Shown here: one piece after another, positions 39,005 to 45,721 of the stretch
Numbering within the stretch: the first letter of the stretch is position 1
How the letters are laid out: every line of letters starts with the position of its first letter
Assembly: GCA_963843575.1 (NCBI GenBank)
Contig: CAWJKZ010000009.1
Span: 32,001 to 96,000 of the forward strand
Length of the DNA stretch: 64,000 bases
Source of the DNA: an uncultured Acidobacteriota bacterium
GTDB taxonomy: Bacteria; Acidobacteriota; UBA6911
Direction of reading: 5' to 3'
Notes under the pieces: model-generated
Told to the model about the DNA's origin: nothing
Seen by the model: the letters and a program-made list of their open reading frames with translations, nothing else
The model's database searches: none
Made by a program: the position numbers and the translations under genes

Positions 39005-40716
39005 ATGGAGGATTTCACGAACATCGAGTTTCACCGCTCTGGGTATGGGATGCTCCCCGACATGCAGGACAAAGATCCCGGCATGCCGATCTGCTTTCCA
39101 AGGAATGCCGGCGGAGAAATACTCACCGGCAAATGCGACTGCCGCCAAAGCAGGAAAGGGCAGGATTGTGCGCATTTTGAGCGGCTGGTTCGGGCTGCGC
39201 GCCAGATAAGGAAACAAAATGGGGGCCGTTCCTGGGGAGACGCCTTCAATGCAAGCTTGTGGTACCGACTCGCAGCCATTTTGAGCGAAGGAGATGCTGT
39301 CCTGTGCCCTGACATTCGTGCCGCCCGCAATCCGCAGGAGCGGACTTGGAGCTTCCTGTCTCCGCGGGAGGCCCTGTTAGCGAAGTCACTGGATGACTCC
39401 GAAGCTTCATTGAGGCTGCTCGAACGGGCCGGAAAGACACCGCGGTCAAATCGCTTCCGGGACCGCGCCGCACTCATACGGCACCTCGCCATCATACTGC
39501 GCGGCGAGGATGAGAAGAGGATGAACGAAGCAGGGGTCCTCACCTATCGCCAGACCACGGAACAGAGCTTCTGGGGAATGCTCGCCTATCACTGCTTCCG
39601 GGAATACGGCGCCGCCTGTACCTTCCACCCTGCAATCGAGCAGGCGACCGGCGATTTTGTTCTCAAGTGCCGCTCCCGCAGCGAGGAACTCTTGCTGGAA
39701 CTTGTTCTGCCGCGCCGGCGGGTACGCAAGGCCCTTGGACTGCTGGCTGCCGAATTTCCTGGACAGGCCGACCTGGCGCTCCATCCTGTCCCGCTCAAAT
39801 CGATATTCCTCGTCTCGCAGAAAACGAAATTGGATCTCGAGGTGCGCCCCATGATCCAGACACTGCAGTCTTCAGGTGAGGCGCGGTTTATCGCCAGCGA
39901 GGACTGTGCAAGATTTCGATATGGCGATCTCGTGTATCTGCGCGAAATGAATATCCTGGCGGAGTTGGAAACGCCAGGCACAGCAAGAAGATTCGTCGCC
40001 CCGACCAGCATGAAACTCAAACGAAGCCAGCTCCCGGCGTAGCTTGACGAACACCGGCGCGACCTGGAAGACGGCCTGCTGGTGCTCGACGAACCGTTGC
40101 GCGAGCTTTCAATTCTGCGGGAACCGACGGCATCGAGATTGTCTCGGAGACGCTCGAACGCAGTTGGTATTGGCTTTCGATCCGCTACGGATTCGGAGAC
40201 GAATCCGTTTCCCTCGCAGACATCCTGCAGGCGAAGCGCGCGGGCCAGGGGTACATCCAGCTCCGTCGCGGTTGGGTGGATGTCAATTCGCAGGCATTCA
40301 GAGCCCTTGACCAGATAGAGAAACACGAGGCACTCGCGATCGAGGGGAGGAAGGTACGCTTCTCGCCCGTCGATCTGCTGCGCCTGATGTCGTCCAATTG
40401 CCAACCTCTCCGAATCAAGGAAGAAGACCAGCGCGCCGAAATCGTGAAGCGGCTGCTCGCACTGAAACCAGCGCTTCCCGGAGGCCGTCTCAGGGGAATG
40501 GTCACTCCGTTGCGCCCGTACCAGATGAAGGGAGTCGACTGGCTTCGCTTTCTGTTCGAAAACAATCTCGGCGGTTTGCTTTGCGACGACATGGGACTCG
40601 GCAAAACCCACCAGACGATGGCGCTGATGATCTCTCTTCGCGAACGCAACCGGATCAAGGATCCGTTCCTGATTGTCTGTCCTACCACCGTCATAAGCCA
40701 CTGGATGAACAAGATT
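39005..40716 (+). pseudogene. SWIM zinc finger-SNF2 helicase with in-frame TAG (40040), frameshift (~40122) and truncation by an IS
   Basis: CDC...CAH SWIM; LRPYQ..GVDWL; LCDDMGLGKT Walker A; LIVCPTTVISHW, then the IS inverted repeat. Confidence 0.88.
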
Positions 40717-40849
40717 CCAGACCTCCTGACATAGTGTCGCGGACCCGCGTGTTTAGTGGGTATGCGTCAGGGGTAGGGGGGGACCCAAACCTGTCCGCTT
40801 TTTGTGACGCCGGTTTTTCGACTCCGGGGGGATCTGGCATGCTCCTGCC

Positions 40850-43129
40850 ATGGCAGGAGCAGAACAGCAACGACGGCTTTTTCCGGATCCTCCTTGCGAC
40901 GACGCGACGATCCTCATAAATGATCGCTGCGTCATTCGGACGGAGCATGACTCTCGGCTTGTGGTCGTGTCGGGTATTCCGCTCGCGCAATACGCTGTAG
41001 GGGATAGAATGGCCGAGGCGCACGCGAAGGTCACCCTCGTAGAAGCAGGATGGGCGGACCAGAACGATGTTGCCCACGCGTTCGGTTGCTCGGCGCGCAC
41101 TGTCCGCCGGCATCAGCGTCGGTTCGGAGCGGGTGGACTCCCGGCGCTCGCCCGCGAGGATGGATATCCAACTGGATGGCGACGAATTGCACGGTCGCGA
41201 GAGCAACTCGTGCTTCGGCTGAAGGCACAGGGCCAGTCGAACCACGAGATTGCACGCCGCCTCGGCGTGACTCCAAAAGCAGTACGGAAGCTGCTGAAAC
41301 GACTTGGCTGGTGTGGGACCGAGCCGGGGCAACCTTCTCTCCCCATCGCGGCAGGGGGGGACCCAAACCTGTCCGCTTTTTCCCCTCGCGGTCGCGATGG
41401 CGCAACTGCGGCGCGTCCACTCAGGGCCCCAATGGTCTCCACTGCCCCAGAGGACGACGAACCGATTCCAGTGTCGTTTGATACCGACCCCTCCGACCGC
41501 CGCATAGACCGAGTCCTGGCGTACTTGGGCCTGCTCGATGACGCAGCTCCGCTCTTCCGTTCCGGTACTCACGTACCGCGCGCCGGCGTATTGCTCGCAG
41601 TGCCCGCTCTGGTCGACAGCGACGCGTTCACGATCGCCCGCAAGATCTACGGCAGTATCGGCCCCGCCTTCTACGGCCTGCGCACCACGTTGCTGGCCTT
41701 GCTGCTCATAGCGCTCCTGCGTATCAAACGGCCCGAAGCGCTTAAGGAACACGTGCCGCAGGATCTCGGACGGGTTCTCGGCCTCGATCGCGCACCCGAA
41801 GTGAAGACCCTGCGGCGCAAGCTCAGCCGTCTCGCTGCCTATGGCCGTGCCGCAGAGTTTGGACGTGCCCTGGCGCAACAGCGCGTGGCAGAGCGCGGGG
41901 CCGCGCTCGGGTTCCTGTACGTCGACGGACACGTCCGCGTCTATCACGGCAAGCGCACCCTGCCGAAGACCCACGTTGCACGTATGCGCCTGTCGATGCC
42001 CGCAACGACGGACTACTGGGTCAACGACACCGTCGGAGACCCACTCTTCGTCGTCACGGCTGAGGCGAACGCCGGCATGGTGAAGATGCTGCCCAAGGTG
42101 CTCGCCGAGGTCCGAGTCCTTGTCGGCGACCGACGCGTGACCGTGGTGTTCGGCCGGGGTGGCTTCAGCCCGAAACTCTTCCTCAAGCTGATCGCCGACG
42201 GCTTCGACATCCTCACGTACCGGAAGGGCCGCTTCCGGCGAGTCGGCCGATCGTGTTTTCGGGTGCACGACTCGGTCATCGACGGACGGAAGGTCTCGTA
42301 CAACCTGGCGGATCAAGAGGTGCGTCTCCTCAAAAGGAAACTCCGGCTGCGGCAGGTTACGCGACTCGCTGAGGACGGCCACCAGACTCCGATCTTGACC
42401 TCCCGGCGCGATCTGTCGACTCTCGAGGTCGCCCACAGGATGTTTGAGAGATGGCGCCAGGAGAACTTTTTCAAGTACTTGCGAGAGGAATATGCGCTCG
42501 ACGCCCTAGCCGACTACCGAGCCGTTCCGGATGACCCTGCGCGGGACGTCCCCAACCCCTATCGGCTGGAGATGACGGCCAAGATCAAAGAGGCTCGCGC
42601 CGTGCTCGAGCGGCTCACTGGCGAATACGGAGCCGAGGCTTTTCTCAATCCCGAGCAATCCCGGCCAACGATGCGCGGCTTCAAGATCGCGCAGAGCAAA
42701 CTCGCTGACCAGATCCGAGAGACGCTCGAACGTACCGCAAGACTCGAGGAATTGCGCGCCGCCATGCCTACCCGGGTCCCCGTCGGCGACCTCGTCAGGG
42801 ACGGCCTCGTCAAGCTCGATCCCGAGCGCAAGTTCCTGACCAACCTCATCAAATTGGTCGCCTATCAAGCGGAGAGCGACCTGGTGCGTCTTGTTGCTCC
42901 GCACTACAAGCGCACGGACCAGGAAGGGAGAACGTTGATCCAGTCGGCCCTCGCCGCGCCGGCGGATCTCGAAGTCACAGCGGAGGATCTCCGAGTCAGG
43001 ATCGTGCCGCTCAGTTCGCCGCACCGGAGTCGCGCCATCGCGTCCCTCTGCGACGAACTCAATCGGCGGTCCACCCGGTTTCCGGGTTCCCGGCTCCGCC
43101 TCAACTATGCTGTGCGCGAGGCACCGTGA
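40850..43129 (+). CDS. DDE transposase (IS4/IS1380-like superfamily) with N-terminal HTH domains
   Basis: HTHs QNDVAHAFGCSARTVRR and SNHEIARRLGVTPKAVRK; YVDGH, VFGRGG (Asp expected), RWRQENFFK. Confidence 0.85.
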   Translation: MAGAEQQRRLFPDPPCDDATILINDRCVIRTEHDSRLVVVSGIPLAQYAVGDRMAEAHAKVTLVEAGWADQNDVAHAFGCSARTVRRHQRRFGAGGLPALAREDGYPTGWRRIARSREQLVLRLKAQGQSNHEIARRLGVTPKAVRKLLKRLGWCGTEPGQPSLPIAAGGDPNLSAFSPRGRDGATAARPLRAPMVSTAPEDDEPIPVSFDTDPSDRRIDRVLAYLGLLDDAAPLFRSGTHVPRAGVLLAVPALVDSDAFTIARKIYGSIGPAFYGLRTTLLALLLIALLRIKRPEALKEHVPQDLGRVLGLDRAPEVKTLRRKLSRLAAYGRAAEFGRALAQQRVAERGAALGFLYVDGHVRVYHGKRTLPKTHVARMRLSMPATTDYWVNDTVGDPLFVVTAEANAGMVKMLPKVLAEVRVLVGDRRVTVVFGRGGFSPKLFLKLIADGFDILTYRKGRFRRVGRSCFRVHDSVIDGRKVSYNLADQEVRLLKRKLRLRQVTRLAEDGHQTPILTSRRDLSTLEVAHRMFERWRQENFFKYLREEYALDALADYRAVPDDPARDVPNPYRLEMTAKIKEARAVLERLTGEYGAEAFLNPEQSRPTMRGFKIAQSKLADQIRETLERTARLEELRAAMPTRVPVGDLVRDGLVKLDPERKFLTNLIKLVAYQAESDLVRLVAPHYKRTDQEGRTLIQSALAAPADLEVTAEDLRVRIVPLSSPHRSRAIASLCDELNRRSTRFPGSRLRLNYAVREAP
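41353..41381 (+). repeat. 29-bp perfect copy of the IS left subterminal sequence 40775-40803
   Basis: AGGGGGGGACCCAAACCTGTCCGCTTTTT at both positions; core inverted as AAAAGCGGACA at 43132-43142. Confidence 0.9.
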
Positions 43130-43173
43130 CGAAAAGCGGACAATTTCGGAGGCGTCTATGTCAGGAGGTCTGG

Positions 43174-45166
43174 GTGCGCCATGAAGGTGCACCGTTCTAG
43201 CGGGTGGAAGTCCCGCCCGAGGAGTTTGGTCGATACGCCTCGGTAGCTGTCAGGCGCGGAAAAACCCGAAAAAGGGAAGGCGGGCGACCGCCACCGCGAA
43301 GCCCTGAGACAAAGGCCCCGAAAGGAGGTCGAGCAAGCACGCAGGCCGCAACGCGAGTGAAGCCTGAGCAGGCCCCGATAGCTGTGTCGTGGACGCTGAC
43401 CCATCCCAGATACGGGGAAAGCCGTCGAGGAGGTGGGCGAGGGAATCGACCAATGCCCGCCACCTGTCCACCGGGGTATTGGGCGCAGCATGCGTGCACA
43501 GAACGATGCGCAACATGGGAGACCTGGCGGCGCGTGGGATTAAGACCGAACACGCACGGAAGGCAAGGGGCGTGGCGCGCTCCAGGAGTCGGAGGGGCCC
43601 ATTGTACCGAGGAAGCGGGGTAATGCCCGTGGAGGGAAGGGGCCCTGGTTCAGAGTGCTTCGCGAGGAGCGGACGAGCAGGAGATTGGCGATGAGCCTAA
43701 CACCCGAAACAACCAAGCTCGAAGAGCTTCGAGGGAAGCTGTATTCGAAGGCCAAGACCGAGCCGACGTTCCGGTTCTATGCGCTGTACGACAAGGTCTA
43801 TCGGTGGGACGTCCTGACGGAGGCGCTGCGACTCTCGCGAGAGAAGAACGGTGCCCCGGGAGTGGACGGCCAGACGTTCGATCAGATCAGGGAGTACGGC
43901 GAGGAGCGGTGGCTCCAGGAGCTGCAGCAGGAGCTGCAGGAGAAGACCTATCGGCCCCAGCCTGTCCGGAGGGTGCTGATTCCAAAGCCAGGGGGAGGAG
44001 AGCGGCCGCTGGGAATTCCCACCATCAAGGATCGGGTGGCCCAGACGGCGGCGAAGCTCATTCTGGAGCCGATCTTCGAGGCCGACCTGAGCGATACGGC
44101 GTACGGGTACCGTCCCGGGCGCGGTGCCGTTCGGGCGGTGCAGCAGGTCCATCAGGAACTTCGCCGACGCCGCACCAAGGTCGTCGATGCGGATCTCTCG
44201 AAGTACTTCGACACGATTCCCCACGCGGAGCTGATGACCTGCCTCGCGCGGAGGATCGCAGATGCGGCGATGCTCCATCTCATCAAGATGTGGCTAAAGG
44301 TGCCGGTCGAGGAGAGAGACGAGCAAGGACGGCGGCGGTTCAGCGGCGGCAAGCGCTCCAAGTGCGGGACGCCGCAGGGAGGTGTGGTTTCGCCGCTGTT
44401 GGCGAACATCTACATCAACCGGATGCTCAAAGCGTTCGCCAAGAGCGACCTGATGAGACGGTGCGGGGCCAGGATCGTCAACTACGCCGACGACTTCGTG
44501 GTGCTGTGCGAACACAGCGCGGCGGCAGGTCCTGGCGGAGGTGAGGCGTTGGATCGTTGGGATGAAGCTGAAACTCAACGAAGCCAAGACGTGTCTACGC
44601 GACGCATGGAAGGAAAGCTTCCGCTTCTTGGGATACGAGTTCGGACCGTTGGGGTATCGGCCGACGCGAACGCGCTACCTGGGAGCCCGACCGTCGAAGA
44701 AGGCAATGGAGAAGGTCCGACAGCGGGTGAGCGAAATCCTCTGGCGCGGTCGTACGGAGCGCTGGAAGGACATTTGTCAAGAGCTCAACCAGTACCTCAC
44801 GGGCTGGGCGGCTTACTTCGCCTACGACACCGCCTACCCATCGTTCCGCATCGTGGACATTCACGTCGCGGCACGTGCGAGGAACTTCCTGAGAAGGAGG
44901 CACAAGCTGTCCAGCGGGACAGCGCGGTTCGGCTACGTCGAGGTGCATCGTGACCTTGGTGTTGTCGAGATCCGGAGCCTCCTGCGGTCGCATGCCCCGA
45001 ATGAAATCTGTCCGAGAGCTGGATGCGGGAAATCCGCACGTCCAGTTCGATGAGCGGCGTGGAGGAGACGGGCCCACGGAAGGCCTCGGTGAGCGTGTGG
45101 GCGAAAGCTCACCCGCGTAGTCGGCTCCGACCTTCCTTCAGGTACCGCGCCTCCCGCCGACTCTCC
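43174..45166 (+). mobile_element. Group II intron (ribozyme plus RT ORF)
   Basis: 5' GTGCG; J2/3 GGA 43591-43593 followed by DIII; DV GAGCTGGATGCGGGAAATCCGCACGTCCAGTTC (45016-45048) with AGC triad; DVI stem with bulged A 45160. Confidence 0.92.
43691..45053 (+). CDS. ltrA: Group II intron reverse transcriptase/maturase without endonuclease domain (frameshift ~44525)
   Basis: APGVDG, RPLGIPTIKDRVAQ, DADLSKYFDTIPH, GTPQGGVVSPLLANIY, YADD; domain X (FRFLGYEF, LNQYLTGWAAYF) in ORF 44541-45053. Confidence 0.93.
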
Positions 45167-45225
45167 ATTCAGAACGGCGGCTTCCTGCCGATCGAGAAGA
45201 TCCGGGAGAAGTTCAAGGCGGCGCA

Positions 45226-45692
45226 CGCTTCGACGGGGAAAACGCTGGTGCGGACCAGGCTGTAGCCCATGAACTCGAGAATGGCGGGATCACGGGACCG
45301 CGACACGATCGCCTCGTACAGGCTCCGCGCCTCCGCGCGCGCAAGAATACGCGCCGAAGGCTCGGGGCCGGGACCCTGGAATGTGAACCCGCGCACGACG
45401 GATCCGCCGGGAATCGGGACGATGAGTTCGGCCTCGGTCCGTACCGGTCGGGGTGAAACAGCGAAATGTCCATGGTGGTCGAGGCAGCCCGGTCCCTGAT
45501 CCGGACATCCAGGGCAACCGCCGTGACCTCGGCGGCAGCAGTCCCCCGCACGATCCAGGCGCTGCGTTGAGGCACGATCACCACGGACGCCAAGGCAGGT
45601 TCCCGTGTCTGCGCACGCACGGCTTCGTTGAGCACACCCGACGCGCAGAGCATCAGGAGGGCGATGAGGACCATTCGGCGTAATGTATTCAT
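45226..45692 (-). pseudogene. N-terminal fragment of a secreted VIT-domain protein (frameshifted, truncated)
   Basis: Signal peptide; DVRIRDRAASTTMDI, EAELIVPIP..SVVRGF, EARSLYEAIVSRSRDPAILEF, VFPVEA, then a break. Confidence 0.78.
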
Positions 45693-45721
45693 GCGAGACT
45701 CCTTTCTGCATCCTCTGCCGG

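What the first reader, a model, noticed from the sequence alone, without database searches (positions are those of the whole stretch)
43156..45169. Group II intron docked on, and apparently programmed against, an IS terminal inverted repeat
Seen: the intron GTGCG starts at 43174, the base right after the IS right IR (...TCAGGAGGTCTGG). A domain I loop, ccc-atCCCAGATac-ggg, contains CCAGAU (43406-43411), which pairs with the last 6 nt of the IR (GUCUGG) as EBS1-IBS1. CCUGA at 43303-43307 can pair with UCAGG (43161-43165) as EBS2-IBS2. Known: introns often home into IS coding regions (RmInt1 in ISRm2011-2) and class C introns target terminators or attC sites. Inference: this endonuclease-less intron uses the conserved IS end as a landing pad. 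Each IS copy would offer two targets without breaking the transposase ORF, giving a hyperparasitic IS-intron partnership that might also block or extend transposition.
Basis: partly seen in the sequence, partly recalled or inferred. Interest (0 to 1): 0.8.

Follow-up and report, generated by a model that had tools for sequence, protein, structure and literature searches.

The report
Group II intron docked on IS end
A self-splicing retroelement (group II intron) sits exactly between the tip of an insertion sequence and the short duplication that element made on landing, and its RNA guide sequences fit that junction; this is a variant of a targeting habit already published for another intron.

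Summary
The core observation holds. A group II intron starts at 43174, the base after a perfect 18-bp right inverted repeat (IR) of a 2457-bp IS (40717-43173).

CCAGAU (43406-43411) is EBS1. Across 116 related introns these positions pair with each intron's own last 5'-flank bases, and they lie in a conserved hairpin loop.

Three details are wrong or were missed:
- The proposed EBS2 (43303-43307) lies in a paired strand and does not covary.
- The intron ends at 45166, not 45169. The next three bases (ATT) are the IS target duplication, and U43479 (EBS3) pairs with its A.
- The intron protein carries a +1 frameshift, and the intron ends in CC instead of AC.

The landing-pad idea is partly supported. 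Contigs from two other metagenome studies carry a near-identical intron behind the same 17-18 nt, with different DNA further upstream. However, 17 of 18 ends bearing this IR in five genomes are empty. I saw no insertion at a left end and nothing pointing to an effect on transposition.

The concept is already published: RmInt2 homes into the IRs of ISRm17 (PMC4615759). What differs here is docking at the outermost base of the IR, so the 3' exon is the target duplication. Interest is moderate to low.

The parts
40714..40716 (.). Left copy of the 3-bp target duplication (ATT) within a GANTC-type target
   Evidence: All 17 intron-free ends are followed by A-N-T-C, and 5 of 5 complete elements have matching ANT duplications.
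40717..40734 (+). Left terminal inverted repeat of the IS (CCAGACCTCCTGACATAG)
   Evidence: 18 nt, 100% complementary to 43156-43173.
40850..43129 (+). IS transposase ORF, 759 aa, uninterrupted
   Evidence: PF21804 Transposase_29, E 1.2e-81, profile positions 6-559 of 562, plus N-terminal HTH domains. No NCBIfam IS family reaches its cut-off. No tblastn match in the plasmid collection.
43156..43173 (+). Right terminal inverted repeat, which is also the intron's 5' exon. IBS1 is GTCTGG at 43168-43173.
   Evidence: In one search, contigs of runs X7 and X2 begin to match at 43156/43157.
43174..45166 (+). Group II intron, 1993 nt, IIB-type layout (EBS1 and EBS3 in domain I), with no endonuclease domain in its protein
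   Evidence: Rfam RF02003 and RF00029. (family 3' end). (EBS3/+1 pairing fixes the 3' boundary).
43406..43412 (+). EBS1 (CCAGAU, plus A43412 which does not pair here), in a hairpin loop of domain I
   Evidence: covariation, z 8-14 for positions -1 to -6. (consensus hairpin: stem 43400-43402 with 43414-43416).
43479..43479 (+). EBS3 (U), which pairs with A45167
   Evidence: this alignment column pairs with the first 3'-exon base in 83 of 84 homologs (shuffled mean 47.2, z 11.5).
43691..44527 (+). Intron-encoded protein, RT part, in the first reading frame
   Evidence: RVT_1 E 2e-30; TIGR04416 positions 2-226 of 353.
44528..45053 (+). Intron-encoded protein, end of RT plus maturase (X) part, in a different frame. 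The window has one base more than its relatives at 44527/44528. The ORF end overlaps DV.
   Evidence: GIIM E 1.3e-10; TIGR04416 positions 234-353. table 4: one base is left out at 44527 in X1 and at 44528 in X5 and X7.
45014..45166 (+). Domains V and VI. The 3' end reads CGACUCUCC, with C where the family has A at the penultimate position.
   Evidence: CGACTCTAC 76, CGACTCCAC 8, CGACTCTCC 2 (one is the window), CGACTCCAT 1, out of 87.
45167..45169 (.). Right copy of the target duplication (ATT). A45167 is IBS3.
   Evidence: In one search, the X7 contig of 1581 letters matches up to 45167 and then has 29 letters that do not match.

Best explanation
An endonuclease-less group II intron has retrohomed into the junction between the right tip of an IS and the 3-bp duplication that the IS made on insertion.

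Shown:
- The IS (2457 bp, perfect 18-bp IRs, Transposase_29-type transposase) inserts into GANTC and duplicates ANT. Every one of its ends therefore reads ...GGTCTGG|A.
- The intron RNA fits exactly this sequence. EBS1 (43406-43411, a hairpin loop in domain I) pairs with GUCUGG, and EBS3 (U43479) pairs with the A.
- No convincing EBS2 pairing exists.
- The order of events follows from the layout. The duplication brackets IS plus intron, so the IS landed first and the intron entered afterwards.
- Near-identical introns in two other metagenome studies have the same 17-18 nt in front and unlike DNA further upstream.

Inferred:
- The intron protein reads the more distal IR bases, out to about -18.
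- The IR tip is the homing site, not an accident.
- The intron lies in sense orientation 44 nt after the transposase stop codon with no terminator-like site between them. It is probably transcribed by read-through from the transposase gene.
- Lacking an endonuclease, it would enter single-stranded DNA at a replication fork, as described for RmInt1-type introns.
- Because it sits outside the IR, it leaves the IS intact and is not carried along when the IS moves.
- This particular copy looks disabled: a +1 frameshift in its protein and CC instead of AC at its 3' end.
For: - Intron identity and borders.
- IS: IRs, transposase, 18 ends in 5 of 137 genomes of the class with A-N-T-C flanks, and ANT duplications in 5 of 5 complete elements.
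- EBS1 covariation: 112, 112, 110, 111, 108 and 90 of 116 for positions -1 to -6. Hairpin loop.
- EBS3: 83 of 84.
- Other contexts: X7 record 28 matches 43156-43378 (3 other letters) with 12 unlike letters before it. X2 record 12 matches 43157-43378 with 41 record letters before the match that do not lie on the window. X7 record 32 matches to 45167, then 29 letters do not match.
- Frameshift: and table 4.
- No + strand terminator-like site between 43129 and 43174.
- Clade habit: 22 of 99 homologs have an inverted copy of their own 16-nt 5' exon in the locus, against 4 and 2 of 99 for control 16-mers.
- Published precedent for IR targeting by an endonuclease-less intron: PMC4615759, passages.
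Against: - Only one occupied end was seen among 18. The same-genus genome G456 (81% complete) has four empty ends and no such intron.
- The exact junction occurs only in the window's own genome among the 401 genomes of the phylum searched, and not in viral contigs.
- None of the 115 homologs with an assigned 5' end shares this flank. The three closest (80, 78 and 73% protein identity) sit at unrelated sites.
- The X7 and X2 contigs carry only 17-18 matching letters on the IS side, fewer than the 31 the tool asks for to call a record bridging. I could not read their upstream letters beyond a 12-letter consensus, so it is not shown that they are IS ends.
- RNA pairing specifies only 7 bases; the rest of the specificity is assumed.
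- The left flank (SNF2 fragment) and right flank (VIT fragment) are not one gene. The matching ATT could therefore be chance (1 in 4 given ANT), and the IS may have been rearranged.
Confidence: 0.72

Rival explanations
1. One-off ectopic retrotransposition. The intron's real homing site lies elsewhere, and it entered here only because GUCUGG|A happens to fit its 7 guide bases.
For: 17 of 18 ends are empty. There is no EBS2 pairing with the IR. A 7-base match is expected hundreds of times in 6.7 Mb (my arithmetic). The copy is degenerate.
Against: Contigs from two other studies have the same 17-18 nt before a near-identical intron. Landing by chance on the exact tip of an IS is very unlikely. 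EBS2 pairing is weak across the whole family: runs of 5 or more in 35 of 115, against about 24 expected.
Confidence: 0.12
2. A single insertion inherited as a composite. The X7 and X2 contigs would be the same IS-plus-intron unit in related strains, not independent homing events.
For: Only 12 upstream letters were seen for X7, and 9 of those 12 agree with the window's IS at that place (my comparison). All four runs hold IS-like pieces at about 94-96% likeness (table 8).
Against: The intron part differs by 3 letters in about 222, while the aligner dropped the adjoining IS side at a threshold of 88 in 100. The IS side is therefore far more diverged than the intron. The X7 3' flank also departs right after +1.
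Confidence: 0.12
3. A functional partnership: the intron changes IS behaviour by blocking or extending transposition, or by hitch-hiking with the IS.
For: The only support is position next to the IR and in sense behind the transposase gene.
Against: Both IRs and the transposase ORF are intact. The intron lies outside the IR, so normal end recognition would leave it behind. No IS copy carrying an intron inside its ends was found.
Confidence: 0.03

Closest known systems
RmInt2 of Sinorhizobium meliloti, which homes into the inverted repeats of ISRm17 (Molina-Sanchez and Toro, RNA Biol 2014, PMC4615759; passages read)
   Same: An endonuclease-less group II intron whose DNA target is an IS inverted repeat. 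The paper states that this gives two sites per IS on opposite replication strands, and that EBS2/IBS2 pairing is relaxed (four pairs suffice).
   Different: The paper places RmInt2 'within' the IRs. Here the intron sits after the last base of the IR, so the 3' exon (IBS3) is the target duplication outside the IS. The exact RmInt2 position is in a supplementary figure that I could not see. No retrohoming data exist here, and only one occupied end was seen. The IS family is different.
RmInt1 in ISRm2011-2, and E. coli and other introns that home into IS elements (PMC3522654, passages; PMC1802570, abstract from the search listing)
   Same: Bacterial group II introns that use IS elements as plentiful, harmless targets. 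RmInt1 also lacks the endonuclease domain.
   Different: The RmInt1 abstract (PMC1802570) names ISRm2011-2 as its homing site. PMC3522654 reports other introns at a specific position inside particular IS elements. In those cases the intron lies inside the IS. Here it lies at the IS-host junction.
Class C (IIC) introns that insert after terminator stem-loops or at attC sites (review PMC4424553, passage)
   Same: They target a DNA motif built on an inverted repeat, and EBS2 plays little or no role. In this clade, 22 of 99 members have an inverted copy of their 5' exon nearby.
   Different: In this intron the partner repeat is 2.4 kb away, not a short hairpin. The protein's best solved relatives are IIC reverse transcriptases (E 9e-55), but classes D-F have no solved structure to compare. 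Class was not determined.
IStrons: group I intron fused to an IS (PMC4227781; abstract from the search listing)
   Same: A ribozyme intron physically associated with an IS.
   Different: There the two form one chimeric element that moves as a DNA transposon. Here they are two separate elements, and the intron lies outside the IS ends.

Membership tests
Mobile group II intron | 5' GUGYG and a domain I fold | tested here: met
   GTGCG at 43174. RF02003 84.4 bits, gathering score 49.
Mobile group II intron | Domain V and domain VI with a bulged A | tested here: met
   RF00029 43 bits, gathering score 40, at 45014-45166. The DV sequence matches the homologs. The bulged A (45160) is read from the Rfam alignment only.
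Mobile group II intron | Intron-encoded RT-maturase in domain IV | tested here: met
   RVT_1 and GIIM; TIGR04416 in two pieces. The ORF is broken by a +1 frameshift.
Mobile group II intron | EBS1-IBS1 and EBS3-IBS3 pairing with the flanks | tested here: met
   (covariation over 116 and 84 sequences). Six pairs plus one pair in the window.
Mobile group II intron | EBS2-IBS2 pairing (IIA/IIB types) | tested here: not met
   At most 3-4 pairs at the family's EBS2-like segment. Family-wide the signal is barely above the control.
Mobile group II intron | 3' end AY | tested here: not met
   The window ends in CC; 85 of 87 relatives end in AC or AU. This may mark a defective copy or an assembly error.
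Insertion sequence | Terminal inverted repeats, target duplication, transposase gene, several copies | tested here: met
   Two 70%-identical relatives occur in the same genome. MITE-sized derivatives (about 238-252 bp) occur in G467.
IS-IR-homing intron (RmInt2 type) | Copies at the IRs of several IS copies | tested here: inconclusive
   One occupied end in assembled genomes, plus two metagenome contigs with the same 17-18-nt flank.
IS-IR-homing intron (RmInt2 type) | Both IS ends used | tested here: not met
   No occupied left end among 18 ends. The sample is small.
IS-IR-homing intron (RmInt2 type) | Retrohoming into a cloned IR target | not testable with these tools
   Needs a bench assay.
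Named bacterial intron class (C, D, E, F ...) | Placement of the protein and RNA in the published class trees | not tested
   No reference set was at hand. Best plasmid-borne relatives are 52-56% identical, from rhizobia. Any class name would be recall.

The most novel reading that the evidence does not exclude
The intron does not merely recognise the IR sequence. It exploits the IS transposition intermediate.

After strand transfer into GANTC, the IS end is joined to one target strand. The ANT bases next to it are single-stranded, across a 3-nt gap. A free 3'-OH of the opposite target strand lies a few bases downstream.

For an intron without an endonuclease, that structure would supply both the single-stranded target for reverse splicing at ...GGUCUGG|A and a primer for reverse transcription. 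Intron entry would then be coupled to IS movement.

This would explain docking at the very tip, with IBS3 inside the duplication.
Probability: 0.08. Interest if true: 0.75.

Novelty: new variant of a known kind. Interest (0 to 1): 0.35.

Why it matters
It adds a second, independent case of a group II intron that uses an IS inverted repeat as its homing site, in an uncultured wetland-type bacterium and on an IS family that none of NCBIfam's IS family models reached the cut-off for.

The twist is that the site only exists after the IS has inserted: IR tip plus the constant A of a GANTC-derived duplication. The intron therefore parasitises IS insertions without interrupting the IS and without being carried by it.

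The comparison set also shows that about a fifth of this intron clade sits beside one arm of an inverted repeat. This hints that endonuclease-less introns beyond class C favour such DNA.

None of this overturns current views. It is a useful natural example for work on targeting rules.

Tried and rejected
Rejected: it is a paired strand in the Rfam structure and shows no covariation. A second CCUGA at 43364-43368 is part of a motif conserved in nearly all homologs (GAAGCCUGAGCAGGCC), so it is structural and not target-specific.
- Intron end at 45168 (AU) or 45169. Considered first, then rejected on the family 3' end and on EBS3.
- Single-sequence fold of 43358-43500. Uninformative (z -0.28). 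Replaced by the consensus fold.
- Junction pattern with up to 2 mismatches in 401 genomes. The hits are chance-level apart from the window itself. The 25 hits in G055 lie in the coding sequence of another transposase, with no intron behind them.
- Viral contigs: no junction.
- Plasmids: no relative of the transposase.
- Class assignment. Tried through solved structures, plasmid hits and papers. Not resolved.
- Parts of the IS without cover are not evidence of absence.
- Literature. Searches found no paper describing an intron at the outermost base of an IS IR. I read passages only, and the library lacks most subscription journals, so this is not proof that none exists.
- Rows dropped. Of 160 fetched loci, I assigned a 5' end to 115 from the printed candidates. 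The other 45 had no GTGYG in the expected window, ambiguous candidates or too little flank. Of the 116 sequences (115 homologs plus the window), 87 had the 3' motif and 84 had enough 3' flank. In one search, 99 of 115 had at least 150 nt of 5' flank.

Full report
**What is there**

Rfam finds group II intron domain I at 43198-43356 (RF02003, 84.4 bits) and domains V/VI at 45014-45166 (RF00029, 43 bits), both on the + strand. GTGCG starts at 43174.

Between these lies an RT-maturase gene. The RT part reads from 43691 in one frame (RVT_1 E 2e-30; TIGR04416 positions 2-226). The maturase part reads to 45053 in another frame (GIIM E 1.3e-10; TIGR04416 positions 234-353). No endonuclease domain was found. 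Intact relatives are about 437 aa.

Immediately upstream lies an IS:
- It has perfect 18-bp inverted repeats at 40717-40734 and 43156-43173.
- It encodes a 759-aa ORF (40850-43129) matching PF21804 Transposase_29 over nearly the whole profile.
- The window's genome holds two further relatives, 70% identical overall, with the same terminal 15 nt and no intron.

**The intron's borders and guide sequences**

I collected 160 loci encoding relatives of the RT part: 80 from genomes and 80 from metagenomes, at 53-80% identity. I could assign a 5' end in 115 of them.

EBS1. In a MAFFT alignment of the first 420 nt of these 115 plus the window, the last flank bases pair with window positions as follows:

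| Flank position | Window position | Sequences paired | Shuffled mean |
|---|---|---|---|
| -1 | 43406 | 112 of 116 | 51.1 |
| -2 | 43407 | 112 of 116 | 55.2 |
| -3 | 43408 | 110 of 116 | 45.6 |
| -4 | 43409 | 111 of 116 | 48.4 |
| -5 | 43410 | 108 of 116 | 53.1 |
| -6 | 43411 | 90 of 116 | 50.4 |
| -7 | 43412 | 81 of 115 | 46.2 |

A consensus fold of 46 of these sequences puts it in the loop of a hairpin. Six of the seven stem pairs show compensatory changes. In the window, CCAGAU pairs with GUCUGG through five Watson-Crick pairs and one G-U pair.

3' end. The family's 3' end reads CGACUCUAC| in 76 of 87 relatives; the window reads CGACUCUCC|. With that border, one alignment column (window U43479) pairs with the first 3'-flank base in 83 of 84 relatives, against a shuffled mean of 47.2. 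This is EBS3. In the window it faces A45167. The intron is therefore 43174-45166, not 43174-45169.

EBS2. The family has a variable segment after a conserved CGAWA motif that pairs with positions -9 to -15 in some members. Family-wide the signal is weak: runs of 5 or more in 35 of 115, against about 24 expected. In the window it gives at most 3-4 pairs.

**The IS target and the meaning of ATT**

A search of 137 genomes of the same class found this IR (up to 1 mismatch) in 5 genomes, giving 18 distinct ends.
- Seventeen ends are followed by A-N-T-C.
- The five elements with both ends in view have matching ANT duplications.
- The IS therefore inserts into GANTC and duplicates ANT.
- The eighteenth end is the window's right end. 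It is followed by the intron, and after the intron comes ATTC. The left flank ends in ATT.

The intron thus lies exactly between the IR tip and the duplication. The IS came first and the intron second. The A at +1 that EBS3 needs is supplied by every insertion of this IS.

**Is the IR tip a homing site or an accident?**

Against a homing site:
- 17 of 18 ends are empty.
- The four other IS-bearing genomes lack the intron.
- The exact junction occurs only in the window's genome among 401 genomes of the phylum.
- The closest fetched relatives sit elsewhere, each with an EBS1 that fits its own flank.

For a homing site:
- Public runs from 15 studies hold parts of the stretch.
- I laid four of them. 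Two contigs from studies other than the best holder match the window from 43156 and 43157, the first bases of the IR, to 43378 with 3 other letters each. Upstream of that the records have 12 and 41 letters that do not lie on the window (tables 7 and 8).
- An X7 contig of 1581 letters matches up to 45167, which is the intron end plus the A. The remaining 29 letters do not match.

The same 17-18 nt and the same +1 A therefore flank near-identical introns in other DNA contexts. The caveat is that the IS side of these contigs is short and I could not read it in full.

**State of this copy**

Contigs in X1, X5 and X7 lack one base at 44527/44528 (table 4). That is where the window's reading frame breaks, so the window carries a +1 insertion.

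Together with CC for AC at the 3' end, this points to a disabled copy. Sequencing error is possible, because a neighbouring gene is also frameshifted.

**How it most likely works**

- Shown: the borders, the pairings, the order of insertion, the sense orientation 44 nt after the transposase stop codon, and the absence of a + strand terminator-like site in between.
- Inferred from the RmInt1/RmInt2 literature: reverse splicing into single-stranded DNA at a replication fork, priming by nascent DNA, and protein contacts with the distal 5' exon.
- Inferred from layout: transcription by read-through from the transposase gene. No effect on the IS, whose IRs and ORF are whole. No co-transposition, since the intron is outside the IR.

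**Comparison with what is known**

Introns that home into IS elements are well documented (PMC3522654, passages). RmInt2 is reported in the inverted repeats of ISRm17, with the authors' own remark that this gives two sites per IS and guarantees one on the lagging strand (PMC4615759, passages).

What differs here is the position at the very tip of the IR, with IBS3 in the target duplication. How far from the tip RmInt2 sits is in a supplementary figure that I could not open.

In this intron clade, 22 of 99 members have an inverted copy of their 16-nt 5' exon in the fetched locus. For control 16-mers taken 40 and 80 nt further upstream the figures are 4 and 2 of 99. Sitting beside a repeat arm is thus a habit of the clade.

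**Verdict**

I rate it a new variant of a known kind, of moderate to low interest.

Noticed in passing
window 40714-40716 and 45167-45169; loci L225-L242: This IS family inserts into GANTC and duplicates ANT. All 17 intron-free ends are followed by A-N-T-C, and 5 of 5 complete elements have matching duplications. Genome G467 holds MITE-sized derivatives of about 238-252 bp with the same ends.
   Followed up: partly
window 40276-40716 (+) and 45169-45711 (-): The left flank is the N-terminal piece of an SNF2-type helicase (profile positions 1-71 of 290), the only SNF2-rel_dom match in the genome. The right flank is a VIT-domain gene fragment on the other strand. Both homologies stop at the element, which suggests an IS-associated deletion or inversion.
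   Followed up: partly
window 45213-45711 (-): The VIT gene fragment is itself frameshifted: the signal-peptide-like start and the VIT domain lie in different frames. Two frameshifts within 3 kb raise the question of assembly indel errors.
   Followed up: no
L030, L034, L037, L038, L041, L044, L045, L057, L062, L065, L074, L085, L095, L122, L128, L131, L134, L145, L155, L177: Twenty of the 115 homologous introns, from several phyla, share a 17-nt 5' exon (about YTAGCCCGSWTWWTTCA), while DNA further upstream is unrelated. In 5 of the 8 in which an intron 3' end could be set (9 examined), the inverted 17-mer lies 147-581 nt after the intron. The intron therefore sits just inside the left repeat of a small MITE-like element.
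   Followed up: partly
L058, L063, L066, L068, L072; L154, L157, L159: Other clade members sit in conserved coding motifs. One flank group (...GCAAGA|) looks like the motif I recall from IS5-type transposases; one search shows an IS5 family transposase CDS annotated directly after a related intron in Rhizobium tropici CIAT 899. Another flank group translates to ...MPPAYVKPY, which I recall as IS110-type. The motif-to-family links are recall, not tested.
   Followed up: no
L112 (178-1405), L069, L125, L077: In L112 and L069 the repeat continues beyond the intron's insertion point, so those introns lie inside a long terminal repeat, not at its tip. The L125 flank is the end of an IS with a DDE_Tnp_1 transposase. 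L077 lies next to an IS200-like Y1 transposase gene.
   Followed up: partly
G000 contig C17:1265-1747: Short, 70-83% identical matches to the intron on another contig point to a second, distant group II intron or a fragment of one in the same genome.
   Followed up: no
L109 2450-2479: The closest fetched relative (80% protein identity) follows a perfect 6-bp hairpin (GTAAGA TTTTT TCTTAC) and then six bases that match its EBS1. This layout is reminiscent of class C targets.
   Followed up: no
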